Both the position numbers and the translations under genes were made by a program. Shown here one piece after another: positions 3-31,248 of a DNA stretch of 32,000 bases. The stretch is from Balneolaceae bacterium (GTDB taxonomy: Bacteria; Bacteroidota; Rhodothermia; Balneolales; Balneolaceae). The stretch covers positions 3,162,795 through 3,194,794 of the forward strand of contig OZ245822.1 in assembly GCA_965228545.1 (NCBI GenBank), given 5' to 3'. Under the pieces are notes generated by a model that saw only the letters and a list, made by a program, of their open reading frames with translations, had not been told where the DNA came from and searched no databases. Position 1 is the stretch's first letter. Every line of letters begins with the position of its first letter.

Positions 3-1583
3 GAAGGTTCATTAACTAAAGTTGAACTCATTTACACAGTAGCAGGTACAGCCGATACATTAGCTATGACAAATACGGCAGGCACGCAATACTCGGCAGA
101 ACTGCCAGGATTCCCGGATTTAACCACGGTTAACTTCCGCGTTGAAGCTACCGACGATAACGGTTTTGTGGGTAAAGCTCCAAACGCTGGCGAATACACG
201 TTCTTTGTGACCAATACTCAGATCACAACCATCGAATTTGTACAAAAAACCGACGATGGTATGGAAGGTGATAGCCCGTTAGCAGGTGCAGGTACTGTAC
301 CAGCTGATATTACTGCAACCGTAGTAAGCAGTGCTGTTACCGATGGTTTTATTACCATTCAAGACAGAGCAGCTATGTGGTCAGGTATTTTTGTAGCAAC
401 AGGTGGCGATGCTGATGCATTGTTAGAAGGCGATATTATCAATATTACTAGCTTCGAAGTAACAGAAAACTTTGGTATTTCGAACATGAATATTGGCTCA
501 TTTACAAAAGTGGGAACCAATTCTCAAATGGATACACTTGCAGTAACAGGTTTATTAACTCAAGATGTAACATCGAATTACGAACCATACGAAGGTGTAC
601 TTGTAACCTTTAGTGACGTAAAAATTACCACCAACCAAGCTGATGGCCCAGACAGAGATTTTGGCGAGTTTGAGTTTGGATCGCGACAAGGTGGTGAAGC
701 CGCTGTTGATACGTTAATGGCGGGCGAAGGTCTTCGTTATGATGATGCATCCAGAAGACTTAATGGCACAGTTAATGAAACCATTAAAATTGGTGCTACG
801 TTAGAATCAATTTCAGGTGTAGTTAATTTCTCATTTAGTAATGTAAAGCTAATTGGTGGAGATCCTGATTTCTTCAATGGTGATAACTTTACCTATCCAG
901 ATCCACGATTTACCTTAGATAAACCAAGCGACGACGCTACGGTAGAAGTTACCGGTGATATCACTGTGGAATGGACATCAACAACCGATTTTGACGGCAA
1001 TGATTTAACCTATACTTGGGTGCTATATTCTGCCGCTGATACAACCGAAATTGTTGCTGTTCCTTCAAACAACGAAGGGGAAGATGCGCTTGTAACGCTA
1101 AGCTTCGATACCGTTGATGCACTATTAGCCGGTAGCGGATTAGCTGTAGGCGAGAGTGCAGACTTCGTATGGAACGTATTAGTAAGCGATGGTAACGACA
1201 CGCTTGCTGTTGCCAGTGATTACGATCTTGAAACCAATACTTTTGTAACCACTTACAACGAGCTAACGCTTACTCGTGGTCTTTCAACCAGCAACGAAAG
1301 TGAGTTTGGTGTTCCAACAGAATTTGCTTTAAAGCAAAACTATCCGAACCCATTTAACCCAAGCACAACCATTAATTTTGCTCTGCCGCAAACAAGCAGA
1401 GTTACCTTAACTGTGTTTGATATGCTTGGCCGAAAAGTAGCTACTTTGCTAAATGGCGATCAGTTGCCGGCTGCAAATCATGCTGTAAAATTTGACGCAA
1501 GCGCACTTGCCAGCGGTATGTACATTTACCGAATTGAGGCAGGAAGCTTTGTAAGCACCAGAAAAATGATGCTTATTAAATAA
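3..1583 (+). CDS. Secreted/cell-surface protein with T9SS C-terminal sorting domain (5'-truncated by window edge)
   Basis: The frame is open from nt 3, with no stop before the ATG at 66, so the gene begins upstream of the window. The last ~80 aa (KQNYPNPFNPSTTINFALPQ...GMYIYRIEAGSFVSTRKMMLIK) fit the Por/T9SS C-terminal sorting domain pattern. A strong hairpin terminator follows. Confidence 0.8.
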   Translation, partial: EGSLTKVELIYTVAGTADTLAMTNTAGTQYSAELPGFPDLTTVNFRVEATDDNGFVGKAPNAGEYTFFVTNTQITTIEFVQKTDDGMEGDSPLAGAGTVPADITATVVSSAVTDGFITIQDRAAMWSGIFVATGGDADALLEGDIINITSFEVTENFGISNMNIGSFTKVGTNSQMDTLAVTGLLTQDVTSNYEPYEGVLVTFSDVKITTNQADGPDRDFGEFEFGSRQGGEAAVDTLMAGEGLRYDDASRRLNGTVNETIKIGATLESISGVVNFSFSNVKLIGGDPDFFNGDNFTYPDPRFTLDKPSDDATVEVTGDITVEWTSTTDFDGNDLTYTWVLYSAADTTEIVAVPSNNEGEDALVTLSFDTVDALLAGSGLAVGESADFVWNVLVSDGNDTLAVASDYDLETNTFVTTYNELTLTRGLSTSNESEFGVPTEFALKQNYPNPFNPSTTINFALPQTSRVTLTVFDMLGRKVATLLNGDQLPAANHAVKFDASALASGMYIYRIEAGSFVSTRKMMLIK

Positions 1584-1630: not shown

Positions 1631-1643
1631 AATACATGTTTAA

Positions 1644-3137: not shown

Positions 3138-3141
3138 AAGT

Positions 3142-6099
3142 ATGATAAAACGACATCTATCTGCATTTTTACTCACTATCTTTTTGGTTTCGATTCCGGC
3201 ATTAGCCCAATCAACCGGCCGGATTAGTGGCGTGATTACCGAAGCAGGCATAAACGAGCCTTTACCCGCCGTAAACGTTCGAATAGTTGGCTCCAATTTA
3301 GGTGCAGCAACCGATATTGATGGAAACTATACCATTCGTGGAATTCGTCCAGGCGAATATACTATCGAAATATCTTTTCTTGGCTTCAAAAAAGTACAGG
3401 TTACAGGTATTAAAGTTGAGGCCGGCGAAACTACCGTTGTAAATCAAACACTGGAAGAAGAAGTATTTGAAGCGGATGGAGAGGTAGTAGTAATAGGCGA
3501 GGCACCAATTTTTGATGTTGAGAAATCGAATACCTCGGTTAATATCTCTCGGCAAGATTTAGAAGCAGCTCCAATCCAGCGTGTAGAAGATGCGGTTTCA
3601 TTGCAATCTGGAGTTGTTAAAGACCCAACCGGACTATATATCAAAGGTGGCCGTGCCTACGAAACCGGATTTGTGGTTGATGGTGTATCTGCACAGGATC
3701 CATTGGCAGGTACTGGATTCGGGTTAGATTTGGGTTCAAATTCGTTCTCGAATGTTGAAGTAATAACCGGTGGCGTTGGCGCAGAATATGGCGATGTAAC
3801 TTCAGGTGTTGTAGCTGTACAAACACAAAACGGTGGCGAGCGCTACGAGGGAACGTTTACTCACAAGCGAGATAATCTTGGTTCCAATAATATGGCCAAC
3901 CAAGCCAACTTCTTCGAAGATGTATATGAATTTACACTTGGTGGCCCCGGAATTGTCACCGAGCGACTACTGCCCTCTCTGGGATTGAATTTGCCGGGTA
4001 CATTCACCTTCTTCTTAACCGGGCAAGTTGGCTTTACCGATGGGTATACAAAAATTTCAGCAAACCAAATTCGATCATCTATCGTAGATAGCGAGTTTTG
4101 GTCGCCCCGGCAAGGAAATCGCTGGAATGGTATGATGAAATTAACCTACAATGTACGCCCGGGTTTACGAGTTCAGGCAGCGTATCAGCGTTCGTTAACT
4201 ATCAATCAAAATACACGCATGTTGCAGATAACCGGTGCAGATACACAAATACGGCCGGGTTTCCAGTTCGCTTTTTCGAATGGATTTTTAGATAACGCAA
4301 ATACGTATACACACGATAGTAATTTGTCATACTTGAAATGGACACAAACTATTGATCAGTCTTCGTTTTTCGAAGTTCAACTAAGCCGATTGTTCACTCA
4401 GCTACGTGCCGATGCAAATGGCCGTGATTGGAGGCCGGAAAATGTAGACAGTGAATTTGATCCCGAAAGTATAGTAACTCGTCCGGCTGAAGAATTCCAA
4501 GGTACAGACGATTTCACCTATGTGTTAGCTGGTCCAGGATATTTCAATAATGGCGGTATCGCTCAGCTATGGCACGATCACTTTGCTGAAGAAGTCACAT
4601 TAAAGTCATCATTCACGAAATTTTTTGGCGAGCGTATTAATCAAATTGTGGTAGGCTTCGAAGCGAAATTCAACGACTACCAATGGGTAGATATCACTCG
4701 TCCTTGGATTGGGGCCCCCATCAAGATTGATGACGATACTTTCTCCGAGACGTTCAGAGTTGGAGAAACTTTTGATGCATGGCGTGTAAAGCCTAAACGT
4801 GGAGCATTATTCATTACCGATAAAGTGAGATATAATGGACTAATAGCCAATATTGGGGCACGCATCGAGTACTGGGCGCCGGGTAGATATGTTGATAATG
4901 CGGTAGAAGACGCACTAGCCGAAAATTCGGTATCAACCATTCCCCGATTTATTGCCGAACAGTATCAAGAGAGTACTACCGAAGTATTCGGGTTGCGTTA
5001 CAAATTCCGATTCCTGCCTAAGGTAAACGTGTCTTTCCCTGTTAAAGACAATCAGGTTTTATTTTTCAATTACGGGCATTCCGCGCGTGTGCCTCATCCA
5101 ACTTTTATTTATGCGGGATTAGACCCTTTTTATCAAGACCAGTCTGATCTACCGGATTTAGGAAACCCAAATTTGGATCCTGAAATTGATATTTCCTATG
5201 AAATCGGTTTCCGAAATCAAATTACTTCTAACGATGCGCTCAATATTTCGGCCTTCTGGCGAGATAAATATGATTTTGTAACCTCACAGCTAATTCGAGT
5301 ACAAGATGTGGATGGCCGCGATGTTTCAAAAGCGTTCCGTATTAATGGTGATTATGCACGTGCAAGAGGGATTGAAATGTCGTACTTAAAACGATATAAA
5401 GATTTATTGCGCGGACAGCTTTCCTTTACATACTCTCGTGCAGAAGGACTTAGTTCAACTAATGATGATAATCTGAACAGCATAAACGCACGCCAAAATA
5501 TTGGTAGCAACGTAGAAACACCACTTGCATGGGATCGCCCATTCGATATCAAAGGGAATGTTACATTCACTTACGATCGAAGCAACCCCTTACTCGATCT
5601 TGGTATTTTAAATCAGTTTCAGATGTTTTTATCTGCAGTTTGGCGAAGTGGAACCCGATACACACCTAACGAATTTGTTGGCTTCCAGCGAAATCCGGTA
5701 ACCGGAGAGGAAGATTGGCGTCCGATTTATGAGCGTGTTGATGATCCGGCGAAACGATTCAGTGAAGTTGGCCCTGCATGGTTTACCGTCGACTTCAACT
5801 TCCGAAAATGGTTCGAAATAAACGATACACAAATTTCTGCCTTTGTTGAAATCACCAATTTATTAAACAACCGCAGTTCGGTTATTGTAAACCCTGTAAC
5901 AGGCGAAGGCTACAAACAATATCCATCCGATCCGGCTGCTCTCATTGCTTTACGCGACGATCGTAGCTACGATGTTCCAACTAATGTTCGTGATCCTCGC
6001 TATCTGGATCCAACCGATAATAATCTTCCTTCCTACGATAACCCTGCCAATTACATAGAGCAGCGTCATATTTTGGTTGGCTTATCCGTACGATTCTAA
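3142..6099 (+). CDS. TonB-dependent outer-membrane receptor with N-terminal carboxypeptidase-regulatory-like domain
   Basis: It has a signal peptide ending ALAQ. A CarboxypepD_reg-like stretch follows (GRISGVITEAGINEPLPAVNVRIVGSNLGAATDIDGNYTIRGIRPGEYTIEISFLGFKK). A plug-like region is present (LQSGVV...IKGGRAYETGFVVDGV...GVGAEYGDVTSGVVAVQT). The C-terminal beta-signal is LVGLSVRF. Confidence 0.85.
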   Translation: MIKRHLSAFLLTIFLVSIPALAQSTGRISGVITEAGINEPLPAVNVRIVGSNLGAATDIDGNYTIRGIRPGEYTIEISFLGFKKVQVTGIKVEAGETTVVNQTLEEEVFEADGEVVVIGEAPIFDVEKSNTSVNISRQDLEAAPIQRVEDAVSLQSGVVKDPTGLYIKGGRAYETGFVVDGVSAQDPLAGTGFGLDLGSNSFSNVEVITGGVGAEYGDVTSGVVAVQTQNGGERYEGTFTHKRDNLGSNNMANQANFFEDVYEFTLGGPGIVTERLLPSLGLNLPGTFTFFLTGQVGFTDGYTKISANQIRSSIVDSEFWSPRQGNRWNGMMKLTYNVRPGLRVQAAYQRSLTINQNTRMLQITGADTQIRPGFQFAFSNGFLDNANTYTHDSNLSYLKWTQTIDQSSFFEVQLSRLFTQLRADANGRDWRPENVDSEFDPESIVTRPAEEFQGTDDFTYVLAGPGYFNNGGIAQLWHDHFAEEVTLKSSFTKFFGERINQIVVGFEAKFNDYQWVDITRPWIGAPIKIDDDTFSETFRVGETFDAWRVKPKRGALFITDKVRYNGLIANIGARIEYWAPGRYVDNAVEDALAENSVSTIPRFIAEQYQESTTEVFGLRYKFRFLPKVNVSFPVKDNQVLFFNYGHSARVPHPTFIYAGLDPFYQDQSDLPDLGNPNLDPEIDISYEIGFRNQITSNDALNISAFWRDKYDFVTSQLIRVQDVDGRDVSKAFRINGDYARARGIEMSYLKRYKDLLRGQLSFTYSRAEGLSSTNDDNLNSINARQNIGSNVETPLAWDRPFDIKGNVTFTYDRSNPLLDLGILNQFQMFLSAVWRSGTRYTPNEFVGFQRNPVTGEEDWRPIYERVDDPAKRFSEVGPAWFTVDFNFRKWFEINDTQISAFVEITNLLNNRSSVIVNPVTGEGYKQYPSDPAALIALRDDRSYDVPTNVRDPRYLDPTDNNLPSYDNPANYIEQRHILVGLSVRF

Positions 6100-7088
6100 T
6101 GCATATGAAGAAATTTCTACTCCCACTTTGTGTACTGTTCACGTTTGCCACTCCACTGTTTGCGCAGGGTAGTTTTGGCGAAGACCGTGCAGGAACCGAA
6201 GGGTTTCAGTTTACAAAAATAGCAGTTGATCCCAGAAGCGCGGCAATGGGCAATTCAAATATGGCAGATGCTTACGATGCCTCTAGTTTATATTGGAACC
6301 CTGCGCTTTCAGCTCGCCTCGAAGGCAGTAATGTAATGCTCAGCCATACGCGTTATTTCGCAGGCATAAATCTCGATTACTTTTCTGTTGTTCAAAAAGT
6401 GGGCGATTTTGCTTTGGGTGGTTCCGTGCAATATTTGAGTTCAGGAGATATCACTGAAACCACTGAATTTCAACCTTTTGGCACTGGCAGAACCTTTGCT
6501 ACCCATCATTTGTCGGCGGGGGCTTCTGTATCCCATGAAGTAACCGAACTCTTCAGTTATGGTATTACTTTTCGCTATCTGATGGAAAAAATCGAAGAAA
6601 TACAATACCAAAGTGGTGCTATCGACTTTGGGTTTTCTTACCTCGTTGGTGATACCGGTCTGAGATTTGCCGTGGGAATAAATAACTTTGGATTTGATTC
6701 AAGCCCTGAAGGCACTACAACCCGAGAAAGCTTAAATGGAGTGGAAGAAATTGAACCGGAAGAGCAGCAATCGCTACCAACCCGATTTTTAATTGGTGCC
6801 GCTTACGATTTGATCGACAACGAAGAAAACTCGTTGGTACTAACCGCTCAAATCACCAACCCAAGCGACAATGCCGAACAATTTAATCTGGGTGCCGAAT
6901 ATGGTTTTATGAAGCAATTTTTTGTGCGAACCGGTTATGAGTTTGGCATCGAAGAACGCAAAATTCCAAGTTTTGGTGCCGGTGTGGAATTACCATTTGG
7001 AAACAGAATAATACGCGCAGATTATGCGTACTCTTTATACGAACGCCTCGGTGAAATTCATCGAATAGCTATTAATGTAGCATTATGA
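6099..7088 (+). CDS. PorV/PorQ-family outer-membrane beta-barrel protein
   Basis: It has a signal peptide ending LFAQ. The N-terminal motif GTEGFQFTKIAVDPRSAAMGNSNMADAYDASSLYWNPALSA matches the PorV/PorQ family signature as I know it. Its start overlaps the upstream stop (TAATG). Confidence 0.7.
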   Translation: MHMKKFLLPLCVLFTFATPLFAQGSFGEDRAGTEGFQFTKIAVDPRSAAMGNSNMADAYDASSLYWNPALSARLEGSNVMLSHTRYFAGINLDYFSVVQKVGDFALGGSVQYLSSGDITETTEFQPFGTGRTFATHHLSAGASVSHEVTELFSYGITFRYLMEKIEEIQYQSGAIDFGFSYLVGDTGLRFAVGINNFGFDSSPEGTTTRESLNGVEEIEPEEQQSLPTRFLIGAAYDLIDNEENSLVLTAQITNPSDNAEQFNLGAEYGFMKQFFVRTGYEFGIEERKIPSFGAGVELPFGNRIIRADYAYSLYERLGEIHRIAINVAL

Positions 7089-20936: not shown

Positions 20937-21019
20937 AGTTTAGTTTTTAAATTGATGTCCCGTTTTCGTTCATTCAATTGTAATTGAGGTATACGTTAAT
21001 ATCAACCAAAGGAGAAAAC

Positions 21020-22626: not shown

Positions 22627-22663
22627 AAGCTAAATAAGTTATAGAGAACGTGATGATTTATGT

Positions 22664-22672
22664 TGTGGATAA
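22664..22672 (-). promoter_or_regulatory. Perfect DnaA-box consensus 9-mer (TTATCCACA on the minus strand)
   Basis: TGTGGATAA is read on the plus strand inside the AT-rich intergenic region. This may be a chance match; see findings. Confidence 0.25.
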
Positions 22673-22780
22673 TTATTAGCTAAAAGGTAGTTAAGATACT
22701 AATACGCCTTTTTTAGTAGCTTAGATAGTGATAATAAGTAGAAAATAGTAAGTAGTATTATGTAGTTTTTTTAATAATAA

Positions 22781-22789
22781 TGTGGAAAA
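22781..22789 (-). promoter_or_regulatory. Near-consensus DnaA-box-like 9-mer (TTTTCCACA on the minus strand)
   Basis: TGTGGAAAA is read on the plus strand. It has the same orientation as the box at 22664 and lies 117 bp downstream of it. Confidence 0.2.
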
Positions 22790-22872
22790 CTCTAAAATTT
22801 TCTGCATACTTAGGCTCTTTTCGTAAAAAAATTCAAAAATAAAGGCATCAACTTACTCTACAGGGGTTTGAA

Positions 22873-24717
22873 ATGGTTGGGAAAACACACAAATGGCTTT
22901 TAATATTGGTATTTGCCTTTTTAAGCACCGGTATTATTGCGCAAACCTTACCCGGACAGGCGGTAGCTACCGATGTTCAGGAGGAAGCGGCAAAGTACGA
23001 GCAGTACTATGAAGTAATTTTAAATAATGCACTCTCCGATTATTACCGACGAGGTACATTTATTGTAGACGCTAAAGCCACCCTCGAACGAGTGCTGGTA
23101 CCAAGAGGCTACGAAGTAATTGAAGGGGAAGAACCCGTTCGGATCGAAAATTTGCCGGGTCTTCCTTTTGTGCCACCGAACCTGCAACGTTCTACCAACG
23201 GAACTACCGATAGTTTAAAGGCTTCTGGTTTTGACGCGCAATTTAGATTAACACGCCTCACCATAAAAGTACTGGTAGATACTTCATATAGCGATGAAGA
23301 TGTAGAGTTCGTAGAAGAAGCAACCGCTTTAATTGCTAATGCCGATCCTTTTCGTGGCGATATTGTAACGGTTGAAAAAAAGGTTTTTCCAAGAAGTGCT
23401 CGAGCAATAGAGCAAGATGTTAGAAATCAATCGGGCCAAACACAAAATATGGCTGAAGAACCTCAAGTTGAACTGCTTGAGCCGGTTACCAATCAGCAAG
23501 CAGAAACCCAGGAGAAGAATATGTTTCTAGGGATTGATTGGAATAATCCACAACATTTAATCTATGTGATTGCAATATTGGGAACGCTATTCTTGATAGC
23601 CTTATTGGTAATATTATTGAGGCGCCCTTCAAAACATGAAGAAGAATATCGAGTTCCAACAATGCCGGCATACAAGCCCGGAGAACCAATGCCCGCAGCC
23701 GAAACCAAGGTTGAGCCTAAAGGCCCTGATGCTAAAACACTTGCACAACACGAAGAGGATAAAACCTTTGTAACCAATTCTTGTATCAGCCACCCAGATA
23801 AAGTAGCCGACTTAGTTGAACAATGGATTGCCAGTGATGATGAGCAGGGCATTATTCGTTCGGCACGTTCATTAAATTGCGTTGACGAAAAACTGATAAA
23901 TGTGCTGGAGCCGCATTTGAAAGTAGAGCACTATGAGTCGGTTAAATATGCAATTCAGAATTTGGAGCCAGTTCCGATCGATGAAAAAATTGATGAAGTG
24001 AAGGCTTTAAGAAGAAGTTTACAACAAATAAACTCTAAAAATGGTACGGCTGATTCCGGTTCGAACCTATTTGATTTTGTATATCAACTAACTGATGTAC
24101 AATTGTTGCACCTAATTAAAGAAGAGTCGGATGAATTAGTTGCCATATTACTTGCCCAAATTGCAGGTGAACGAGCCGGAGTAATTCTGCAAAAGATGGA
24201 CGACCAGAAGCGAATTTCAATTCTGCTGAAAATGGGTAAGATTAATAATATCCCTATTTCGGTATATAAAAAGGTGGCTGCTCACTTCTCGAATAAAGCA
24301 TTGTCGGTGTCTGATATGAAGTATGTTGCCGCAGACGGTATCGACTCGATTCTTACCACACTCGAGACCATGCCATTATCCGAGCAAGACGAGTATGTAC
24401 GTTCCATTGCCGAGCAGGATCTTAACCTGGCAAAACGAATTAAGAAATTTTTCATTGGTTTTGATGACCTACCGAAAGTGAAAGACGATTTTGTTCAAAG
24501 TGCACTGGAAGATATCCAAACTGAAACTTTGATTTTGGCACTTAAAACCGCACCAGCGGCAGTTAGAGAAAAGATTCTAAAAGTGCGCCCAAAACGTGAA
24601 CAACAGTTAATACTTTCTGAAGTAGACAACCCGGCAGATGTACCAAAAGCTAGTATCGAAGATGCCCAAAAAACGGTGTTGTATGCAGTTCGTAGAAAAA
24701 TGAAGACTGAGGGCTAA
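22873..24717 (+). CDS. Membrane-tethered FliF-C-like / FliG-like fusion protein (candidate rotor)
   Basis: The N-terminal hydrophobic segment is WLLILVFAFLSTGIIAQ. The periplasmic part ends in a FliF-C-type motif (LTRLTIKVLVD...ADPFRGDIVTVEKKVF, RGD at nt 23353-23361). The TM helix is LIYVIAILGTLFLIALLVILL (about nt 23557-23619). The cytoplasmic region from aa ~306-612 is collinear with FliG N/M/C, for example FFIGFDDLPKVKDDFVQSALEDIQTETLILALKTAPAAVREKILKVRPKREQQLILSEVDNPADVPKASIEDAQKTVLYAVRRK versus T. maritima FliG MFVFEDILKLDDRSIQLVLREVDTRDLALALKGASDELKEKIFKNMSKRAAALLKDELEYMGPVRLKDVEEAQQKIINIIRRL. Confidence 0.7.
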   Translation: MVGKTHKWLLILVFAFLSTGIIAQTLPGQAVATDVQEEAAKYEQYYEVILNNALSDYYRRGTFIVDAKATLERVLVPRGYEVIEGEEPVRIENLPGLPFVPPNLQRSTNGTTDSLKASGFDAQFRLTRLTIKVLVDTSYSDEDVEFVEEATALIANADPFRGDIVTVEKKVFPRSARAIEQDVRNQSGQTQNMAEEPQVELLEPVTNQQAETQEKNMFLGIDWNNPQHLIYVIAILGTLFLIALLVILLRRPSKHEEEYRVPTMPAYKPGEPMPAAETKVEPKGPDAKTLAQHEEDKTFVTNSCISHPDKVADLVEQWIASDDEQGIIRSARSLNCVDEKLINVLEPHLKVEHYESVKYAIQNLEPVPIDEKIDEVKALRRSLQQINSKNGTADSGSNLFDFVYQLTDVQLLHLIKEESDELVAILLAQIAGERAGVILQKMDDQKRISILLKMGKINNIPISVYKKVAAHFSNKALSVSDMKYVAADGIDSILTTLETMPLSEQDEYVRSIAEQDLNLAKRIKKFFIGFDDLPKVKDDFVQSALEDIQTETLILALKTAPAAVREKILKVRPKREQQLILSEVDNPADVPKASIEDAQKTVLYAVRRKMKTEG

Positions 24718-24719
24718 GC

Positions 24720-25805
24720 ATGAAAAGAATAGTACCGCTTGGTTTTCTGATACTACTACTTGGCTCAGTTGAATTAGTTCAGGCACAAACCCACGAAGAA
24801 GGTGTGCCGTATCAAATGGAGTTGATTAGTATCCAAATGGCGGATCAACTAAACGATATTCCTGCAAATATTCGCAGAGTTGCGGTATATAAGATGAACT
24901 ACAACGCTATGCGCTTTACAATGCAGGAAGTAGAGTTTATCCGTAGCGAAATAGAAGCTTCATTAAGTGAATATGCCGGATTAACAGTGCTTTCTCCACC
25001 AGAGCTGGAACCTAATGATAAAATGAAAATTTTCGGCAGCGACAGTACCCTGCAGATTCTAAATATTCAAGGAAGATCTTTGGCTGATGTTTCCCCAGAA
25101 TTTCTTTCCGAAATTAGCTCAAAATATGGAGTAAACGGTCTTATTGAGGTTGGCATGCAACGCCGTAATCCAGATGGATTAATACTTTCGATGAGAATGA
25201 TGAACCCAAATTCCAGAGAAATTGTATGGACAAAAAGCTTCATTGCCAATCCATTCGAGATAGAGGAAGAAGTGGACAAAGGGAATACCCTTGTATTTTC
25301 TTTCGGGGCTGGTGCACTGCAAACAGAATCAAAATTCAGAACGGATACTTCGTTTGCAAACCAAGATACGGCGTTTAGTTCTCTCGTATTTAATTATGCA
25401 GCAAATGTATCGTATCGCCAGCCAATTAATGCGGAAAATAGCGCATTTATAGGTTTTACCGGAGGTATTAATTTGCTGCGTTCGAGCCAAGACAATGATT
25501 TTGATCTAACTCTGATAGAACTAGGAATATCATACTATCAGGCGCTGTCTCCAGAAAAGAATGTGACAATCAATGATTATAAAATGATGCTGTTTTTGAA
25601 ATCCAGTATTCTATTTCCTGTGAGTTCGGTTCAAGGAGAAATACTTTCGGCCCAACCAGGACTAATGCTCAATTTGAGTAAAAACCTTGGGGTATCATTT
25701 TATACCAGCTTGATTTTATCCGGCGAAGAATTAACTCTGGAAAACAACGACAGAATAACATACAACAAGGTTGGATATGGAGTACATGCAGTTGTCAGGT
25801 TCTAA
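24720..25805 (+). CDS. Probable outer-membrane protein: periplasmic alpha/beta N-domain plus C-terminal beta-barrel
   Basis: The signal peptide ends VQAQ. The C-terminal half has alternating hydrophobic residues and ends in the OMP beta-signal YGVHAVVRF. The N-half pattern (IRRVAVYKMNYNA...GVNGLIEVGMQRRNPDGLILSMRMMNPNSREIVWTKSF) weakly recalls CsgG/LpoB/TolB-N/FlgO-type modules. Confidence 0.5.
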   Translation: MKRIVPLGFLILLLGSVELVQAQTHEEGVPYQMELISIQMADQLNDIPANIRRVAVYKMNYNAMRFTMQEVEFIRSEIEASLSEYAGLTVLSPPELEPNDKMKIFGSDSTLQILNIQGRSLADVSPEFLSEISSKYGVNGLIEVGMQRRNPDGLILSMRMMNPNSREIVWTKSFIANPFEIEEEVDKGNTLVFSFGAGALQTESKFRTDTSFANQDTAFSSLVFNYAANVSYRQPINAENSAFIGFTGGINLLRSSQDNDFDLTLIELGISYYQALSPEKNVTINDYKMMLFLKSSILFPVSSVQGEILSAQPGLMLNLSKNLGVSFYTSLILSGEELTLENNDRITYNKVGYGVHAVVRF

Positions 25806-26397
25806 ATCGATTTTACTTTTGATCTTGGTTGCATTTGCAAGCTATGGCTGTAAATCAAGCGAGCCTATTCAAGCGAATTCGCAGCCTACGTTTCAAACCA
25901 TGCCAGAAATAACAACCTCTGATGCGAGGAATGAAACCAATCAGAATGAAGACAAGCCAAACCCGGTAATTGTTACCTACCGCAACGCAAGTTCTGCAAT
26001 TCAAATTACCCTAGATCCCAGTAGGGATGAATTTTATCTTGATTTAAAAGGGATGACACCTACAGAAAAGGATTCTATCGTTGTTGTAGACTCCTCTATT
26101 GTTAACAATCGCGCTCGGGATATTCAAACGCTTTTATCGAGCTACAGGAAAGCGCAAGATCTGTTTTATTTAGGTGAGTACAAAGATGCTTTAGATGAGG
26201 TAGAGAAAACACTAGAGATTCAAGAAACGGCAGATGCTTATGCGCTAAAGGGTACCATATTTTTTATGATGGAGAATATAACAGCAGCCAGAGCAAACTG
26301 GAATAAAGCAGTGCAAATGGATCCTAATATTCCGGTTCCAAGCATACCGGAATTAGAAACTTTAATTAACGAACTACGAGAGGACGGTAGACAATGA
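25786..26397 (+). CDS. TPR-repeat lipoprotein
   Basis: The signal with Cys is SILLLILVAFASYGC. The TPR-like helices are AQDLFYLGEYKDALDEVEKTLEIQETADAYALKGTIFFMMENITAARANWNKAVQMDPN. The start is ambiguous (TTG 25771, ATG 25777 or ATG 25786), and every option overlaps the upstream gene. Confidence 0.6.
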   Translation: MQLSGSKSILLLILVAFASYGCKSSEPIQANSQPTFQTMPEITTSDARNETNQNEDKPNPVIVTYRNASSAIQITLDPSRDEFYLDLKGMTPTEKDSIVVVDSSIVNNRARDIQTLLSSYRKAQDLFYLGEYKDALDEVEKTLEIQETADAYALKGTIFFMMENITAARANWNKAVQMDPNIPVPSIPELETLINELREDGRQ

Positions 26398-27212
26398 GAC
26401 TTTCGTTAACCAACATACTTGGGGTGATTTTCAGTATTGGAATATTAGTTTTCGGAATCACTGAAATAACTAATGTAACGGCTGTACTAAGCTCCATACC
26501 GGCGCTATCGCAGTACACGTTTTTAAATCTTCCAAGTTTATTTATTGTGATGGGTGGAATTTTAAATGCCGTTTTCATTACCTATCAACCAAAATATGTA
26601 GGGCAAGCTTTTGCAGGCATTTTCTACATTTTCAGCCAGGCAAAAACATCATCAAAAACCCTAGAAAATGATCTCGGCGAAATGCTGGTGTGGAACGATC
26701 AGATAAAAAATAACAGGGTTAACGCCTTATCGAAACTAGAAGACGAACACAATGGTGAAGTTTCGGGCTATTTATTCTCGCTAATGAGTACAAACTACTC
26801 TAATGAGGATATTAAATCGTTTGGTTCTAACCACATCGAAGAGCAATATTTCCGCCAGCTTGTAGTGGTAGATGTGCTACGTGCAATGGGGGCAGCAGCG
26901 CCTTCTTTTGGGATGTTTGGAACTCTGTTCGGATTGGTTGTAATGCTCGGCCAGCTTGAAAATCCATCCGGTATGGGGCCCGGGCTTGCCGCGGCATTAA
27001 TTACAACCTTGTACGGCATCTCTCTTGCTCGATTTATCTTTTATCCGGTGGCTGAAAAAATTAAAAATGTGGCACAGCTCAATCGTTTTCGAGAATACTT
27101 TATTCTTGAAGGTGTTTTGCTGATTAATGAGAAGAAATCATCGTTTTACATTCAGGATAAATTAAGCACATACTTAAGAAGAGACTTCAAGAATAAGCAG
27201 GTAGCAGATTAA
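26394..27212 (+). CDS. MotA/PomA-family stator proton-channel subunit
   Basis: It has a 4-TM topology with a large TM2-TM3 cytoplasmic loop. The TM3/TM4 signature is AAAPSFGMFGTLFGLVVMLGQL...LAAALITTLYGISLARFIFYPVAEKI, with both conserved prolines present. It overlaps the upstream gene by an ATGA. Confidence 0.8.
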   Translation: MRLSLTNILGVIFSIGILVFGITEITNVTAVLSSIPALSQYTFLNLPSLFIVMGGILNAVFITYQPKYVGQAFAGIFYIFSQAKTSSKTLENDLGEMLVWNDQIKNNRVNALSKLEDEHNGEVSGYLFSLMSTNYSNEDIKSFGSNHIEEQYFRQLVVVDVLRAMGAAAPSFGMFGTLFGLVVMLGQLENPSGMGPGLAAALITTLYGISLARFIFYPVAEKIKNVAQLNRFREYFILEGVLLINEKKSSFYIQDKLSTYLRRDFKNKQVAD

Positions 27213-27226
27213 AATGGAGGCTTTCG

Positions 27227-27919
27227 GTGATTAAACGCGAATATGGCGGTAATTCTGATTTACAGGAAGAACATGTTGAGGACCAAGAATGGTTGCTCAC
27301 TTACAGTGATATGATCACTTTGTTGCTTGCTTTTTTTGCCATGCTTATTGCCGTTTCGTATGTAGATCTAAACCTTTGGGAGCAAATGAAGCAAGGCCTG
27401 CGATCGGAAATATCGAAAGAAGAAAACGTTCGTACTCCGCTTGCTGAGGTTAAAGCTGATTTGGACTCTTTATTGGCAGAAGAAAAATCACAAGGTTTGG
27501 TAGACATAATATTAGACCGTGATGGGATCAAACTTTTCTTTTCCAGTAGTTCATTTTATCAATCAGGAGAAGCTCAATTATTACCAACAGGCCAGAGAAT
27601 CATCGACAAAGTTACACAGGCAATGAATGCCCTTGATTTCTACAAGTTTAATGTGGATGTAGAAGGACATACCGACAACGTACCTATAAATACGCCCGTT
27701 TATCCATCCAATTGGGAATTGTCGGTAGCGCGAGCCTCTGGGGTAGTTAAATATTTTATCGAAGAAGGAATTGAAGCCGAGCGGCTTAAAGCCTCTGGGT
27801 ATGCAGATACAAAACCGGTAGTACCCCATGTAGATGAACAAGGCAGGAATATTGTTGAAAACAGAGCCCTGAATAGGAGAATTGTGGTACGTATTTATTA
27901 TCAATTGGCATCGAACTAA
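27227..27919 (+). CDS. MotB/OmpA-family stator subunit with peptidoglycan-binding domain
   Basis: A GTG start follows GGAGG. The TM is EWLLTYSDMITLLLAFFAML with the conserved Asp (Asp28, nt 27308-27310). The OmpA-like domain is VEGHTDNVP...SNWELSVARASGVVKYF...GYADTKPV...NRALNRRIVV. Confidence 0.85.
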   Translation: MIKREYGGNSDLQEEHVEDQEWLLTYSDMITLLLAFFAMLIAVSYVDLNLWEQMKQGLRSEISKEENVRTPLAEVKADLDSLLAEEKSQGLVDIILDRDGIKLFFSSSSFYQSGEAQLLPTGQRIIDKVTQAMNALDFYKFNVDVEGHTDNVPINTPVYPSNWELSVARASGVVKYFIEEGIEAERLKASGYADTKPVVPHVDEQGRNIVENRALNRRIVVRIYYQLASN

Positions 27920-27964
27920 TTTTTTAGGCACTAATCCGTCAGTGCTTCAGTTATTGAAGCTAAA

Positions 27965-30889
27965 ATGCCTATGAAAAAACTTTTACTATCTCTTTCGCTA
28001 CTCTTTTTCGGGAATTATCAAGTACATGCTCAGGCTATTTCCGATTCCATGGCAGTGCTACCCTCTAAAGCAATTCATCAAACAGATATATTAAGAGCTT
28101 TATCCGGTCTTTCACCCGGGCTTAAAATTACATCTACCGGCGGAGTTTCAGGTACAGGTACAAATGCAGTACTTCGAGGTTATTCCAGCTTAAATGCGCC
28201 TAGCGATCCCTTAATTATAGTAGACGGTATTCGTTTTAATGGAGCAAACAATCATAACAGCACCGCATTTAACGGCGGCGGAGCTCTGGTGACACCAAGC
28301 CGATCTTTCGATCTACATCCCTCCGAAATACTTTCTGTAAACGTTTTAAGCTCACTTCAGGGAACGTTGATTTACGGTGAAGAGGCTACAAATGGAGTTA
28401 TTGAAATTACTACTCGAAGAAACCCCATCGATTTAGCCGACGAAGGGTATGAAATAACGATCGATCAAAGTGTATACTCTTCAAGTATCTCGAGCCGGCC
28501 GGAATACCAAAATGAATATGGTATGGGTTTTAACGGGCAATATGGGCCTTTTTTTAGCTCTTGGGGGGCATCCTTCGGCAGTCAGAACCCGGCAGAGTTT
28601 CCATCAAATTTTAATGGCTTAGATGATGATGGCACAGTACTGGTAGATCATCCTTATGGGTTTTATAATTTTGCAACCGATGGGGCTCCCGATTATGCGA
28701 CAGAAGTTTATCGCTTTGAAGCTAGAGAATCAGCTACCGATGCCTACTTTAGAAATGGGGTAGGTTCACGCTCATTTATAGATCTTAACTATCGAAAAGG
28801 CAGAACCAATTGGAGTTTTAATTATGCCGGAAATCGAGAAGATGGGTTTACACCAAACAACTCGATATTGAAAAATAGCTTTGGCGCTTCAGCAAGCTAT
28901 CGGCTTATCGACAAAGTGCAAGGTAGCACCAGTGTTCAATTTTTATTTTCTGATGTGAAAATGCCTCCACAATCTGCTGGGAGTGGAAGTGGTGTAGTTG
29001 AAGGCGGGGCAACTTCTGGAGCTTTTACTTATGTGCTGTTCACGCCAAGATCAATCGATCTGTCGCTTCCAAGTGTTAATCCTGATAACGATGGATTTAC
29101 TTATTATCGACCGGATATAATACATCCCAAATGGTTTGCAAATAATGCATCAACCACCAACGAAACCAATCGAATTTTAGGTAAAACCTCCCTTACTTTT
29201 AATCCTTCCGATCAATTTGAGTTTACATACAGATATAGTTTCGATAGTTACGATGAAAATCAGGAGTACAAACTCAATCCAACGGGTACATTTAATTTCC
29301 CTTATGTGTTAGGATTGTTTCAAACCATAGAGTTAAATCGAACGTTGCTCGACAATTTTGCACTAGCAACTTATCGCCCGAATATAAGTGATCGATTAAC
29401 TGCTAACATCGATTTGGGCAGCCATTATATCAGCGAAAACATCAATGAAAAAGGTTTGGAAAGCACAGACATTAGAACGGTTGGTGTTTTCGAACACGAA
29501 AATTTTCGAGTACAAAGCAATACCAATTCTTTTACCGATGAATTGATGGAGCGAGAATTCGAGCGAAGGTCCTTTGGTGCTTTTGGTGCCTTAAATCTAC
29601 TCTTCGATGAGTGGATATACACAAAGGCGGGATTTAGAAAGCAATGGAATCAATCCTTGCATCAGCAAAATTTAAAGGCCACCTATCCATCTTTTACGGT
29701 AGGAATAATTCCAACAAATCTGCTCGAAAACAACCAGTTGTTAAGTTCTTTCGATCTCTCATTTTCGTATTTAACCTCCGGCAGATCCAGATTAACGGAA
29801 TTAGAAATACTGGTTCAGGATCGGCCTAGTGTTGGGGTAAATGAAGAGTTGAAGCCCGAACGATCAATCGAAAAACAGCTGGCTGCCACAATAGGCTTTT
29901 TCAATAATAGAATTTCATTATCAAGTAAATACTATCATCGCATTCATACCGATTTGATTTCCAGAATCGCAGTTAACCCAACTCAAGGCTTTGGCTCAAT
30001 ACTAGATAATTTACTAGAAATGGAGGTTAAAGGAGTAGACGCACAAGCGCGTATTGTTCCATTGCAAGGAAAAGTAAACTGGGCGATAATTTCTAATTTT
30101 AGCACATCTAAAGCCGAAGTGAAAGAATACACCGGAACCTTTAATGCCATTCAATTGGGAAATAGTCAATCGTTTAGAGGGAATCTTGCACAAGTAAACG
30201 AACCCTTTTTAAGCATGTATGGTAGTACAATTCTGCGTGTAACAAGCGATATACAAAGAGCTGATCCAAACATGAGAAATGTACCGATAGGAACCCCGAT
30301 TATCGATAACAATGGAAATTATATCACTGATCAAAATTCGATAATAGGAAATCCAATTCCAGATTGGAACCTCTCCACACTCCAACAGATCGATTACAAG
30401 AATATCACCTTATCTATTCAAATTGACTACCAAAAAGGTGGCGATATGTACAGTAGTTGGATTAGTTCGCTGATAGGCCGAGGGTTAGTAACTTCAACAT
30501 TGAATAGGGAAGAGACGTTTATTATTGAGGGTGTGCAGTTTGATGGAACGCCTAACGATATCGAGATTAGCAAACAACAGTATTATTTCAATAACCTCGG
30601 GTTTGGCCCAGACGAACTAAGAGTTTACGACATGACGCACCTGCGTATTTCACATATTGGTTTTGCTTATCAAGTTCCACAACAATGGATTATGAAAACC
30701 GGATTGAAAGAGGTAATTATTTCCTTCTCGGTAGAAAATGCCTTTCTGAAAATGTACAATATTCCAGAAGGTACTGGATTTGATCCGAATGTAAATTCGA
30801 ATGGGGCAGGACTTAACAATTTGGGTTTTGAATACTTAACCGGTCCGGGGGTTCGCAGATTTGGGGGTTCGATTCGGGTGAGCATATAA
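27965..30889 (+). CDS. SusC/RagA-like TonB-linked outer-membrane transporter with no SusD partner
   Basis: The signal ends VHAQ. The plug motifs are ILRALSGLSPGLKITSTGGVSGTGTNAVLRGYSSL, DPLIIVDGIRF and EEATNGVIEITTRR. It is ~970 aa with a C-terminal beta-strand GGSIRVSI. No SusD-like gene follows. Confidence 0.8.
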   Translation: MPMKKLLLSLSLLFFGNYQVHAQAISDSMAVLPSKAIHQTDILRALSGLSPGLKITSTGGVSGTGTNAVLRGYSSLNAPSDPLIIVDGIRFNGANNHNSTAFNGGGALVTPSRSFDLHPSEILSVNVLSSLQGTLIYGEEATNGVIEITTRRNPIDLADEGYEITIDQSVYSSSISSRPEYQNEYGMGFNGQYGPFFSSWGASFGSQNPAEFPSNFNGLDDDGTVLVDHPYGFYNFATDGAPDYATEVYRFEARESATDAYFRNGVGSRSFIDLNYRKGRTNWSFNYAGNREDGFTPNNSILKNSFGASASYRLIDKVQGSTSVQFLFSDVKMPPQSAGSGSGVVEGGATSGAFTYVLFTPRSIDLSLPSVNPDNDGFTYYRPDIIHPKWFANNASTTNETNRILGKTSLTFNPSDQFEFTYRYSFDSYDENQEYKLNPTGTFNFPYVLGLFQTIELNRTLLDNFALATYRPNISDRLTANIDLGSHYISENINEKGLESTDIRTVGVFEHENFRVQSNTNSFTDELMEREFERRSFGAFGALNLLFDEWIYTKAGFRKQWNQSLHQQNLKATYPSFTVGIIPTNLLENNQLLSSFDLSFSYLTSGRSRLTELEILVQDRPSVGVNEELKPERSIEKQLAATIGFFNNRISLSSKYYHRIHTDLISRIAVNPTQGFGSILDNLLEMEVKGVDAQARIVPLQGKVNWAIISNFSTSKAEVKEYTGTFNAIQLGNSQSFRGNLAQVNEPFLSMYGSTILRVTSDIQRADPNMRNVPIGTPIIDNNGNYITDQNSIIGNPIPDWNLSTLQQIDYKNITLSIQIDYQKGGDMYSSWISSLIGRGLVTSTLNREETFIIEGVQFDGTPNDIEISKQQYYFNNLGFGPDELRVYDMTHLRISHIGFAYQVPQQWIMKTGLKEVIISFSVENAFLKMYNIPEGTGFDPNVNSNGAGLNNLGFEYLTGPGVRRFGGSIRVSI

Positions 30890-31212: not shown

Positions 31213-31248
31213 AAAAGCCTCACTGGAAAGTGAGGCTTTTTCTTTTTT
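31213..31248 (+). terminator. Rho-independent terminator
   Basis: AGCCTCAC (31216-31223) and GTGAGGCT (31230-31237) form a perfect 8-bp stem with a 6-nt loop. TTTTCTTTTTT follows, and an upstream A-run could extend the stem. Confidence 0.85.

What the first reader, a model, noticed from the sequence alone, without database searches (positions are those of the whole stretch)
22873..27919. Candidate non-flagellar rotor-stator envelope machine: FliF/FliG fusion, OM barrel, TPR lipoprotein and MotA/MotB operon
Five same-strand genes are packed very tightly behind a 246-bp AT-rich intergenic region. The junctions are a 2-nt gap, a ~20-35-nt overlap, a 4-nt ATGA overlap and a 14-nt gap.

(i) 22873..24717 has an N-terminal hydrophobic segment and a ~200-aa periplasmic part ending in a FliF C-terminal ring-motif-like stretch with the RGD signature. 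A TM helix follows, then ~310 cytoplasmic residues collinear with full-length FliG.

(ii) 24720..25805 has a signal peptide and an OMP beta-signal (YGVHAVVRF).

(iii) The third gene encodes a TPR lipoprotein.

(iv, v) The last two genes form a complete MotA/MotB-type stator. The MotB-like TM keeps the proton-carrying Asp (LTYSDMITLLLAFF). An OmpA-type peptidoglycan-binding domain is present. MotA TM3/TM4 carry both conserved prolines.

No fliM/fliN, flhA/B, fliI, rod, hook or filament gene lies in the 32-kb window. The neighbours are an ECF sigma pair and a SusC-like transporter. The rest of the window carries FCB-group hallmarks.

FliG is established as the flagellar rotor partner of MotA. 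The envelope motors known in this group are GldLM and ExbBD/TolQR. A membrane-tethered FliG with its own stator and periplasmic/OM partners, but without an export apparatus or switch proteins, looks like a minimal PMF-driven rotary machine. I do not know of a described system with this composition.
Basis: partly seen in the sequence, partly recalled or inferred. Interest (0 to 1): 0.92.

Follow-up and report, generated by a model that had tools for sequence, protein, structure and literature searches.

The report
Flagellar-type rotor and stator without flagellum
Five tightly packed genes encode the rotor ring and ion-driven stator of a flagellar motor, plus two outer-membrane partners and no other flagellar part; the block is conserved in two bacterial phyla, including a non-motile cultured species, so it looks like an undescribed rotary envelope machine.

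Summary

- **P1 (22873..24717)** is a natural fusion. It has a FliF-like periplasmic ring domain (RBM3 plus beta-collar only), a TM helix, and a full-length FliG (N, M and C domains).
- **P2** is an 8-strand OmpA-like outer-membrane barrel with a TolB-N/LpoB-like periplasmic domain.
- **P3** is a TPR lipoprotein.
- **P4/P5** are flagellar-clade MotA/MotB (PomA/MotS-like), with the plug, Asp28 and an OmpA-type peptidoglycan-binding domain.

The five genes are co-conserved in about 57 loci from Balneolaceae and Fibrobacterota, down to 27% P1 identity. One locus keeps all five in a permuted order. Flanking genes vary. All five genes are under strong purifying selection.

A rotor-stator charge pair (FliG D289 / MotA R90 equivalents) covaries between lineages. 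The FliM-binding EHPQR motif and FliF RBM1/RBM2 are missing.

The cassette is present in non-motile Gracilimonas tropica, whose genome is reported to lack flagellar assembly genes. A second cassette type keeps P1, TPR and MotAB but swaps P2 for other secreted proteins.

No description of this system turned up in the searched literature. Rotation and the machine's output are inferred, not shown. The flagellar gene inventory of the source genome could not be made.

The parts
22627..22872 (+). 246-bp AT-rich intergenic region upstream of the cassette; presumed promoter region
   Evidence: Read directly. No Rfam family matched. The sigma-70 consensus scan finds no more sites than in shuffled sequence, and FCB-type promoters are not covered by that tool.
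22873..24717 (+). P1: FliF(RBM3/collar)-TM-FliG fusion, the presumed rotor subunit
   Evidence: The family has more than 100 clusters at 50% identity with the same ~600-aa architecture.
22960..23397 (+). P1 periplasmic alpha-beta-beta-alpha-beta domain (aa ~30-175), with two 20-residue strands, an invariant LPGLP loop and an RGD motif. It is FliF RBM3 + beta-collar-like.
   Evidence: The AF2 model has pLDDT above 90 in the core. Foldseek: 8z5v_A at 1.4e-4 (TM 0.59) and 6sd1 RBM3/collar at 8.6e-4. Pfam YscJ_FliF_C hits 25 of 47 members.
23548..23619 (+). P1 transmembrane helix (aa 226-249)
   Evidence: AF2 helix 226-249, hydrophobic sequence IYVIAILGTLFLIALLVILL.
23731..24711 (+). P1 cytoplasmic FliG-like N, M and C domains (aa ~287-613). 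The torque helix carries R575 and E583.
   Evidence: 3hjl aligns aa 308-613 to 21-320, and 8umd_B scores 2.6e-16. Foldseek: 3hjl at 2.5e-9.
24720..25805 (+). P2: signal peptide, TolB-N/LpoB-like periplasmic domain (aa 29-175), and an 8-strand OmpA-like barrel (aa 191-361) ending in VRF
   Evidence: No Pfam or NCBIfam family matched. AF2 pLDDT is 81. Foldseek: TolB 1.5e-6, LpoB 4q6l (TM 0.62), OmpA/Ail/NspA at about 1e-4. The terminal Phe is nearly invariant.
25777..26397 (+). P3: TPR lipoprotein
   Evidence: TPR_1 3e-8 and TPR_2 1e-7. A Cys after the hydrophobic segment is conserved in orthologues.
26394..27212 (+). P4: MotA/PomA-type stator A subunit with a large cytoplasmic domain
   Evidence: MotA_ExbB 1e-18. 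NCBIfam: MotP 2e-33 and PomA 3e-28 against TolQ 2e-3. PDB: PomA 4e-22. K/R105, R108, E116 and E118 are conserved.
27227..27919 (+). P5: MotB-type stator B subunit, with a TM helix carrying Asp28, a plug, and an OmpA-like peptidoglycan-binding domain
   Evidence: MotB_plug 1e-13 and OmpA 3e-16. PDB: MotB 6ysf 2e-26, plus MotS and PomB. D28 is invariant.

Best explanation
The five genes encode a self-contained envelope machine built around the torque-generating core of the flagellar motor, without a flagellum.

**Proposed mechanism (all steps inferred)**
- P1 assembles into a ring in the inner membrane through its FliF-RBM3/beta-collar-like periplasmic domain. Because FliG is fused in cis, the ring carries an equal-number ring of FliG domains in the cytoplasm.
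- P4 and P5 form MotA5B2-type stator units. The OmpA-like domain of P5 fixes them to peptidoglycan, the plug gates them, and ion flow through Asp28 (H+ or Na+) drives them.
- The cytoplasmic domain of P4 pushes on the FliG-C torque helix of P1 through the charge pairs K/R105-E583 and E116/E118-R575. This turns the P1 ring.
- The outer-membrane-anchored partners are P3 (TPR lipoprotein) and P2 (barrel plus TolB-N-like domain). They either receive the mechanical output at the invariant LPGLP tip of the collar, or scaffold the stators as TPR/OM proteins do in Vibrio and Campylobacter motors.

**Shown:** homologies, domain architecture, residue conservation and covariation, synteny and purifying selection.

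**Inferred:** ring formation, rotation, the coupling to P2/P3, and the cellular function.
For: **Homology**
- P1 matches FliG N/M/C and FliF RBM3/collar.
- P4 and P5 are closest to flagellar PomA/MotA and MotB/MotS/PomB, not to ExbB/TolQ. They have the plug, OmpA-type domain and large cytoplasmic domain that PMC12505986 describes as hallmarks of flagellar stators.

**Interface residues**
- Torque-helix charges are kept. P1 R575 (E. coli FliG R281) is invariant in all lineages.
- P1 E583 (FliG D289) is Glu in 40/40 Balneolaceae and 10/10 type-2 proteins, but Gly in 12/15 Fibrobacteria.
- The stator partner P4 K/R105 (MotA R90 / PomA R88) follows the same pattern: K/R in 41/41 and 10/10, but Gln in 9/9 Fibrobacteria.

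**Synteny**
- P1-P2-P3-P4-P5 is strict in about 57 loci of Balneolaceae and Fibrobacterota.
- One locus has the permuted order P2-P3-P4-P5-P1.
- Flanking genes vary.

**Selection**
- dN/dS is 0.009-0.06 with saturated dS.

**Non-flagellar context**
- No flagellar gene lies in the window.
- P1 has no RBM1/RBM2, and the HPQ of EHPQR is lost.
- The cassette is in non-motile G. tropica, which is reported without flagellar assembly genes.
- Balneola genomes carry two cassettes each.
Against: - No experiment or multimer model shows ring formation, rotation or any P1-P2-P3 contact.
- The flagellar gene content of the source genome (GCA_021651095.1) could not be checked.
- The window protein alone scores below threshold for the FliF family (E 0.059). 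It also scores far below the FliG equivalog cut-off (87.6 against 226.7 bits).
- There is no obvious shaft or periplasm-spanning part that could carry torque to the outer membrane.
- In Fibrobacteria the canonical charge pair is replaced, so the interface may differ there.
Confidence: 0.6

Rival explanations
1. A non-rotary envelope tether or energiser analogous to Tol-Pal/Ton. The MotAB-type unit would supply force or ion-dependent gating. P1 would be a static inner-membrane scaffold. P2 (TolB-N-like domain), P3 (CpoB-like TPR lipoprotein) and the OmpA-like domain of P5 would link the outer membrane, peptidoglycan and inner membrane for envelope integrity, division or transport.
For: - The P2 periplasmic domain resembles the TolB N-domain and LpoB.
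- A TPR lipoprotein and an OmpA-like peptidoglycan-binding domain are present.
- Bacteroidota are reported to lack canonical tol-pal loci (PMC12204202).
- In this genome a TonB-dependent-receptor-like gene follows with no terminator in between.
Against: - P4/P5 are flagellar-clade, not TolQR/ExbBD-like.
- No TolA/TonB-like protein and no TolB propeller are present.
- The partner that is conserved and covaries with the stator is the cytoplasmic FliG torque helix, which in the only known case is a rotor.
- The SusC-like neighbour is conserved only in close relatives.
Confidence: 0.2
2. P1 is the MS/C-ring protein of a real but divergent flagellum whose remaining genes lie elsewhere in the genome, and P4/P5 are its ordinary stators.
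For: - Some Balneolaceae (Aliifodinibius/Fodinibius) carry flagellar assembly genes, and Balneola vulgaris was described as flagellated.
- Artificial FliF-FliG fusions work in Salmonella and Vibrio (papers listed).
- The source genome could not be inventoried.
Against: - P1 lacks RBM1/RBM2, which FliF has alongside RBM3. From my own knowledge, RBM2 seats the export gate.
- P1 also lacks the FliM-binding HPQ.
- The cassette is always linked to P2/P3 and never to flagellar genes in 70+ loci.
- It is present in G. tropica, which is non-motile and reported without flagellar assembly genes.
- Two paralogous cassettes occur per Balneola genome.
Confidence: 0.06
3. The genes are decaying remnants of an ancestral flagellum with no present function.
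For: The Balneolaceae ancestor was proposed to have been flagellated, with gradual gene loss (PMC9909488).
Against: - All five reading frames are intact.
- dN/dS is 0.009-0.06.
- P4/P5 are 96-97% identical between genomes whose flanking sigma factor is only 64% identical.
- Synteny is strict across two phyla, and key residues are invariant.
Confidence: 0.02

Closest known systems
Bacterial flagellar motor core (FliF MS-ring, FliG, MotA/MotB or PomA/PomB)
   Same: - An RBM3 + beta-collar-like periplasmic domain.
- Three-domain FliG with torque-helix charges.
- A 1:1 FliF:FliG arrangement, here enforced by fusion.
- A stator with Asp in the B-subunit TM helix, a plug, an OmpA-like peptidoglycan-binding domain and a large A-subunit cytoplasmic domain.
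   Different: - No RBM1/RBM2 and no export apparatus.
- No FliM/FliN, and the EHPQR motif is degenerate.
- No rod, hook or filament genes in any of 70+ loci.
- Instead the cassette is obligately linked to an OM barrel with a TolB-N-like domain and to a TPR lipoprotein.
Chlamydial natural FliF-FliG fusion (Bergeron 2016, PMC4768692)
   Same: A natural fusion of a shortened FliF with FliG sequence, in an organism without flagella.
   Different: - The chlamydial protein is about 330 aa. It keeps RBM2 plus one further RBM-like stretch, and only the FliG middle domain.
- It has no dedicated MotAB and is thought to work with the injectisome.
- P1 keeps RBM3/collar and all three FliG domains, including the torque helix, and comes with its own stator.
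Non-flagellar 5:2 ion-driven motors (ExbBD-TonB, TolQR-TolA, GldLM, AglRQS, ZorAB)
   Same: An inner-membrane ion-driven motor serving a process in the envelope. It is encoded with periplasmic and outer-membrane partners, and the composition (TPR protein, TolB-N-like fold, PG-binding domain) recalls Tol-Pal.
   Different: - Those motors act through a periplasmic transducer or extension. From my own knowledge, none uses a FliG rotor.
- Their A subunits have small cytoplasmic domains, and their B subunits lack the plug and OmpA-type domain (PMC12505986).
- P4/P5 belong to the flagellar clade.
Stator and outer-membrane scaffolds of elaborate flagellar motors (Vibrio MotX/MotY/FlgT/FlgO/FlgP; Campylobacter PflA/PflB/FlgP). 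From my own knowledge, not tested here.
   Same: TPR or Sel1-repeat periplasmic proteins, together with OM-associated proteins, encoded to position MotAB/PomAB around a rotor.
   Different: No sequence relationship between these proteins and P2 or P3 was shown. Those scaffolds surround a rod and LP-ring, which are absent here.

Membership tests
FliG (flagellar rotor protein) | Three helical domains (N, M, C) collinear with full-length FliG | tested here: met
   Pfam FliG_C 8e-19 and FliG_M 9e-8. A family profile aligns aa 308-613 with 3hjl residues 21-320. Foldseek: 3hjl at 2.5e-9.
FliG (flagellar rotor protein) | Score above the curated equivalog cut-off (TIGR00207) | tested here: not met
   87.6 bits against a cut-off of 226.7.
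FliG (flagellar rotor protein) | EHPQR motif of the middle domain that binds FliM | tested here: not met
   It aligns to E418-S-D-E ... K453. Only the Glu and the basic residue are kept, and HPQ is lost in all lineages.
FliG (flagellar rotor protein) | Charged residues of the torque helix (E. coli K264, R281, D288, D289, R297) | tested here: inconclusive
   K/R558, R575 (invariant) and E583 are kept. D288 corresponds to Ser and R297 is not kept. E583 covaries with stator K/R105.
FliG (flagellar rotor protein) | Soluble cytoplasmic protein that docks on the FliF C-terminal peptide and works with FliM/FliN | tested here: not met
   It is fused behind a TM helix. No fliM or fliN lies in the window or in any related locus. 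The whole genome could not be checked.
FliF (MS-ring protein) | RBM3 with beta-collar in the periplasm | tested here: met
   AF2 predicts an alpha-beta-beta-alpha-beta fold with two long strands. Foldseek hits S-ring/RBM3-collar structures at 1.4e-4 to 1e-3, TM 0.5-0.6. YscJ_FliF_C hits 25 of 47 members, best 7e-8, but scores 0.059 for the window protein.
FliF (MS-ring protein) | RBM1 and RBM2 (the SctJ-like part that seats the export gate) | tested here: not met
   The periplasmic part is only ~200 aa with a single RBM-like domain. There is no YscJ_FliF N-terminal family hit.
FliF (MS-ring protein) | Assembly into a ring of about 33-34 subunits | not testable with these tools
   No multimer prediction was available.
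MotA/PomA flagellar stator A subunit | MotA_ExbB channel domain, both conserved prolines, a large cytoplasmic domain with charged residues, and closer similarity to flagellar than to ExbB/TolQ proteins | tested here: met
   PF01618 1e-18. MotP 2e-33 and PomA 3e-28 against TolQ 2e-3, although all are below the equivalog cut-offs. PDB: PomA 4e-22, with the prolines aligned. Charged residues are conserved.
MotB/PomB flagellar stator B subunit | Single TM helix with the ion-binding Asp, a plug, and an OmpA-like peptidoglycan-binding domain | tested here: met
   MotB_plug 1e-13 and OmpA 3e-16. D28 is invariant in 61 orthologues. PDB: MotB 2e-26.
Bacterial flagellum (whole system) | Type III export gate and ATPase, rod, hook and filament genes in the genome | not testable with these tools
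   None are in the window or in 70+ related loci. G. tropica and Balneola genomes are reported to lack flagellar assembly genes (PMC9909488). The source genome was not inventoried.
Tol-Pal / Ton systems | TolQR/ExbBD-type motor, TolA/TonB transducer and TolB beta-propeller | tested here: not met
   TolQ and ExbB models score E 2e-3 to 4e-3, against 2e-33 for MotP. None of the five proteins hits a TonB/TolA family. P2 has only the TolB-N-like fold and no propeller.
Chlamydial FliF-FliG fusion | About 330 aa, RBM2-like periplasmic part, FliG middle domain only, no dedicated stator | tested here: not met
   P1 is 614 aa, has an RBM3-like periplasmic part and all three FliG domains, and is adjacent to MotAB.

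The most novel reading that the evidence does not exclude
This may be a previously unrecognised class of ion-driven rotary envelope machines. Its core is a FliF-RBM3/FliG fusion rotor, a TPR protein and a flagellar-clade MotAB stator, combined with interchangeable outer-membrane modules. Type 1 uses the P2 barrel. Type 2 uses four small DUF4402-like secreted proteins, a ~280-aa protein, a ~1000-aa protein and a T9SS-sorted giant surface protein.

The machine would drive a surface process such as movement of adhesins or fibres, a new kind of motility or attachment, or energised outer-membrane work.

It would also be a living example of a flagellar rotor and stator working without a secretion system, which bears on how the flagellar motor arose or can be reduced.
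Probability: 0.45. Interest if true: 0.95.

Novelty: new variant of a known kind. Interest (0 to 1): 0.86.

Why it matters
From my own knowledge, FliG-MotA torque generation is known only inside flagella, and every other 5:2 motor (Ton, Tol, Gld, Agl, Zorya) uses a different output. A conserved rotor-stator pair that stands alone, with its own outer-membrane partners, would matter in three ways.

1. It would add a new type of envelope machine to FCB-group bacteria that are abundant in marine and saline habitats.

2. It would give a natural minimal system for studying torque generation: five proteins, a rotor fused 1:1, no switch and no export gate.

3. It would make an open question experimentally testable. 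[quoted passage not shown] Two cultured strains carry the cassette: Gracilimonas tropica DSM 19535 and Balneola sp. EhC07.

Tried and rejected
**Searches that failed or were unavailable**
- The genome scan with the 47-sequence alignment failed because no stretch was conserved enough. It was repeated with 11 sequences.
It was redone with database homologues.

**Literature**
- Eight searches found no description of the system.
- One of them was wasted because 'flig' matches 'flight'.

**Hypotheses tested and not supported**
- *Chaperone-usher pilus.* I tested whether the type-2 accessory genes are a chaperone-usher pilus system. There were no PDB sequence hits. hhalign against E. coli FimC/YadV/YehC/SfmC, FimD-type ushers and Fim-type pilins gave probabilities of 0.3%, 5.4% and 14%.
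- *Canonical FliG in the hit list.* Two 331-aa proteins in the representative search looked like canonical FliGs. They are fragments on 1.3-1.4-kb contigs.
- *Role of the neighbours.* The ECF sigma/YCII pair and the SusC-like gene are conserved only among relatives with at least 78% P1 identity.
- *Balneola vulgaris link.* This flagellated type strain was not seen among any hits, so the link is untested.

**Negative results in the region**
- No Rfam RNA lies in the region.
- The promoter scan found no more sites than in shuffled sequence.

Full report
**1. The observation**

- P1, 22873..24717 (614 aa)
- P2, 24720..25805 (361 aa)
- P3, 25771/25777..26397 (208/206 aa)
- P4, 26394..27212 (272 aa)
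- P5, 27227..27919 (230 aa)

The junctions are a 2-nt gap, a 29-35-nt overlap, a 4-nt overlap and a 14-nt gap. A 246-bp AT-rich spacer lies upstream.

The window belongs to a Balneolaceae metagenome-assembled genome, GCA_021651095.1, on a 3.7-3.8-Mb contig. The rest of the window has no flagellar gene. It does carry type IX secretion marks: a Por_Secre_tail protein at 66..1583 and a PorV-like protein at 6099..7088.

**2. What the proteins are**

*P1.*
- It hits Pfam FliG_C (8e-19) and FliG_M (9e-8). YscJ_FliF_C is only marginal (0.059).
- A profile of 20 close homologues aligns with solved FliG chains (8umd_B at 2.6e-16). It aligns collinearly with full-length Aquifex FliG (aa 308-613 to 21-320).
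- An AF2 model built on 47 diverse homologues (mean pLDDT 84) has these parts in order:
  - an N-terminal hydrophobic helix;
  - a periplasmic alpha-beta-beta-alpha-beta domain with two 20-residue strands;
  - a TM helix (226-249);
  - a flexible linker;
  - an all-helical FliG-like region (287-613).
- Foldseek against the PDB returns full-length FliG first (3hjl at 2.5e-9). It then returns a run of FliF S-ring, RBM3 and beta-collar structures (8z5v_A at 1.4e-4, TM 0.59; 6sd1 at 8.6e-4).
- At family level the FliF signal is also significant by sequence: 25 of 47 members hit YscJ_FliF_C, best 7e-8.
- P1 is therefore a FliF(RBM3/collar only)-TM-FliG(N,M,C) fusion. It has no RBM1/RBM2.

*P2.*
- It has no family in Pfam or NCBIfam.
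- Its AF2 model (pLDDT 81) has an alpha/beta periplasmic domain (29-175) and an 8-strand barrel (191-360).
- Foldseek matches the N-domain to the TolB N-domain (1.5e-6) and to LpoB (TM 0.62). It matches the barrel to OmpA, Ail and NspA.

*P3.*
- It is a TPR protein.
- Its orthologues all carry a Cys after the hydrophobic leader, as lipoproteins do.

*P4.*
- It is closest to PomA (PDB, 4e-22) and to MotP/PomA models (2e-33 and 3e-28). It scores only 2e-3 against TolQ.

*P5.*
- It has MotB_plug and OmpA domains and is closest to MotB, MotS and PomB.
- Asp28 is invariant in 61 orthologues.
- Plug, OmpA-type domain and a large A-subunit cytoplasmic domain are the features that PMC12505986 gives as hallmarks of flagellar, as opposed to generic, stators.

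**3. Is the block a unit?**

*Size of the family.* P1 has 111 representatives below E 1e-30 in a library clustered at 50% identity. More than 100 of the listed ones are ~600 aa and align end to end, down to about 20% identity.

*Type-1 synteny.*
- A scan of one genome per species returned 69 loci.
- In about 57 of them the order P1-P2-P3-P4-P5 is kept. These span Balneolaceae (including cultured Gracilimonas tropica DSM 19535 and Balneola sp. EhC07) and Fibrobacterota genomes whose P1 is only 27-31% identical.
- Flanking genes differ between lineages: rpoBC, alpha-2-macroglobulin/PBP1c, T9SS cargo, metabolic genes.
- The ECF sigma/YCII pair and the SusC-like gene of this window are kept only in close relatives.
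- One metagenomic locus has the same five genes in the order P2-P3-P4-P5-P1.

*Selection.*
- Against the nearest relative, synonymous sites are saturated while dN/dS is 0.009-0.06.
- P4 and P5 are 96-97% identical where the neighbouring sigma factor is 64% identical.

*Type-2 cassette.*
- It occurs as an extra copy in Balneola genomes, and also in a Chitinophagales genome and in unassigned metagenomic contigs.
- It keeps P1, a small TPR protein, MotA and MotB (in Balneola with an added SPOR domain) but has no P2.
- Instead it is preceded by:
  - a T9SS-sorted giant protein;
  - three or four paralogous small secreted proteins, two of which hit DUF4402;
  - a ~280-aa protein;
  - a ~1000-aa protein whose C-terminus is a P3-like TPR.
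- The conserved core is therefore P1 + TPR + MotA + MotB, with alternative outer-membrane modules.

**4. Rotor-stator interface**

Alignment to Salmonella FliG and to PomA maps the known torque-generating charges.
- P1 K/R558 corresponds to K264.
- P1 R575 corresponds to R281 and is invariant in all lineages.
- P1 E583 corresponds to D289.
- P4 K/R105 corresponds to MotA R90 / PomA R88.
- A P4 acidic cluster (E116-E118) lies near MotA E98.

The E583 / K-R105 pair covaries. Both residues are charged in Balneolaceae (40/40 and 41/41) and in type-2 cassettes (10/10 and 10/10). Both are uncharged in Fibrobacteria (Gly in 12/15, Gln in 9/9), where neighbouring charges (P1 E585; P4 K102/K103) are conserved instead. 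This is what a conserved physical contact homologous to the FliG-MotA interface would look like.

The FliM-binding EHPQR motif, by contrast, is reduced to E...K. That fits the absence of FliM and FliN.

**5. Flagellar or not?**

The indirect evidence is consistent.
- No flagellar gene lies next to any of more than 70 loci.
- P1 lacks RBM1/RBM2, which canonical FliF has in addition to RBM3 (PMC4768692). From my own knowledge, RBM2 seats the export gate.
- Balneola genomes have two cassettes each.
- G. tropica DSM 19535 carries the cassette (L028). It is described as non-motile (PMC5167729), and its genome is reported to lack flagellar assembly genes (PMC9909488).

**6. Mechanism proposed**

P1 forms an inner-membrane ring through its RBM3/collar domain, and this ring carries a fused cytoplasmic FliG ring. 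Peptidoglycan-anchored MotA5B2-type units (P4/P5) use ion flow through Asp28 to turn it. The invariant LPGLP loop at the tip of the collar and the OM-anchored P2/P3 are the likely output or scaffold.

The homologies, conservation, covariation and synteny are shown. Ring formation, rotation, coupling to P2/P3 and the cellular role are inferred.

I put 0.6 on the rotary reading. I put 0.2 on a non-rotary Tol-Pal-like tether or energiser. That rival is suggested by the TolB-N-like fold, the TPR lipoprotein and the PG-binding domain. It is opposed by the flagellar-clade stator and by the conserved cytoplasmic interface. I put about 0.06 on a divergent true flagellum and about 0.02 on a relic.

**7. 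Comparison with what is known**

- *Chlamydial FliF-FliG fusion.* This is the closest described natural fusion (PMC4768692). It keeps RBM2 plus one further RBM-like stretch, and only the FliG middle domain. It has no stator.
- *Engineered fusions.* FliF-FliG fusions made in Salmonella and Vibrio assemble rings (papers listed). A fused rotor is therefore mechanically plausible.
- *Literature.* None of eight searches found this cassette described.
- *Public annotations.* They read 'FliG C-terminal domain-containing protein', 'FliG-like protein', 'motility protein A', 'OmpA/MotB family protein' or 'hypothetical protein'.

The library covers open-access papers only, so an earlier description elsewhere cannot be excluded.

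**8. Verdict**

The parts are homologous to the flagellar motor, so I rate the system a new variant of a known kind. As a system (a rotor and stator with their own outer-membrane partners and no flagellum) it matches nothing described in the literature I could search. It may prove to be a new kind of envelope machine.

Interest is high because the result would surprise specialists. It is also directly testable in two cultured strains.

Noticed in passing
L060-L070, L072 (genome loci); L073, L075, L076 (metagenomic loci): A second cassette type keeps the P1 homologue, a small TPR protein, MotA and MotB (in Balneola with an extra SPOR domain) but has no P2. It is preceded by a T9SS-sorted giant protein (Invasin_D3 or Gly_rich_2 plus Por_Secre_tail), three or four paralogous small secreted proteins (two hit DUF4402), a ~280-aa protein, and a ~1000-aa protein ending in a P3-like TPR. 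It is a second copy in Balneola genomes that also have type 1. A chaperone-usher reading was tested by hhalign and not supported.
   Followed up: partly
L077 6564-11854: A metagenomic contig carries the same five components in the permuted order P2-P3-P4-P5-P1. This argues for functional linkage rather than inherited gene order.
   Followed up: yes
window 27965-30889 and 31213-31240: A 974-aa TonB-dependent-receptor-like gene (Plug domain only, 1.4e-7) follows P5 after 45 nt, with no terminator-like site between them. The first strong terminator-like hairpin on the + strand (12-bp stem plus T-run) lies after it, at 31213-31240. This gene may be co-transcribed here, but it is conserved only in relatives with at least 78% P1 identity.
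   Followed up: partly
window 20984-22626: A YCII-domain gene and an ECF-type sigma factor with DUF6596 share a 1-nt overlap just upstream of the cassette. The pair is conserved next to the cassette only in close relatives and lies further away in others, so it is probably not a dedicated regulator.
   Followed up: partly
window 66-8377: A same-strand cluster contains a T9SS-sorted protein (Por_Secre_tail), an unassigned 497-aa ORF, a CarboxypepD_reg TonB-dependent receptor, a PorV-like protein and an NHL-repeat protein. It shows that the organism has type IX secretion.
   Followed up: no
literature: PMC5167729 against PMC9909488: Balneola vulgaris DSM 17893 is described as motile with flagella, yet a KEGG comparison lists the genus Balneola among those lacking flagellar assembly genes. 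Whether B. vulgaris carries either cassette is unknown. It did not appear among the hits.
   Followed up: partly
P1 aa 94-98 and 161-163 (window 23152-23166 and 23353-23361): LPGLP and RGD are invariant in all 65 P1 homologues compared, across Balneolaceae, Fibrobacteria and type-2 proteins. LPGLP sits in the lower-confidence loop between the two long strands, at the tip of the predicted collar, and is a candidate docking site.
   Followed up: partly
window 23562-23852 (-) and 27581-27931 (-): Two antisense ORFs of 96 and 116 aa lie inside P1 and P5. The public gene calls do not include them, and they are most likely chance frames.
   Followed up: no
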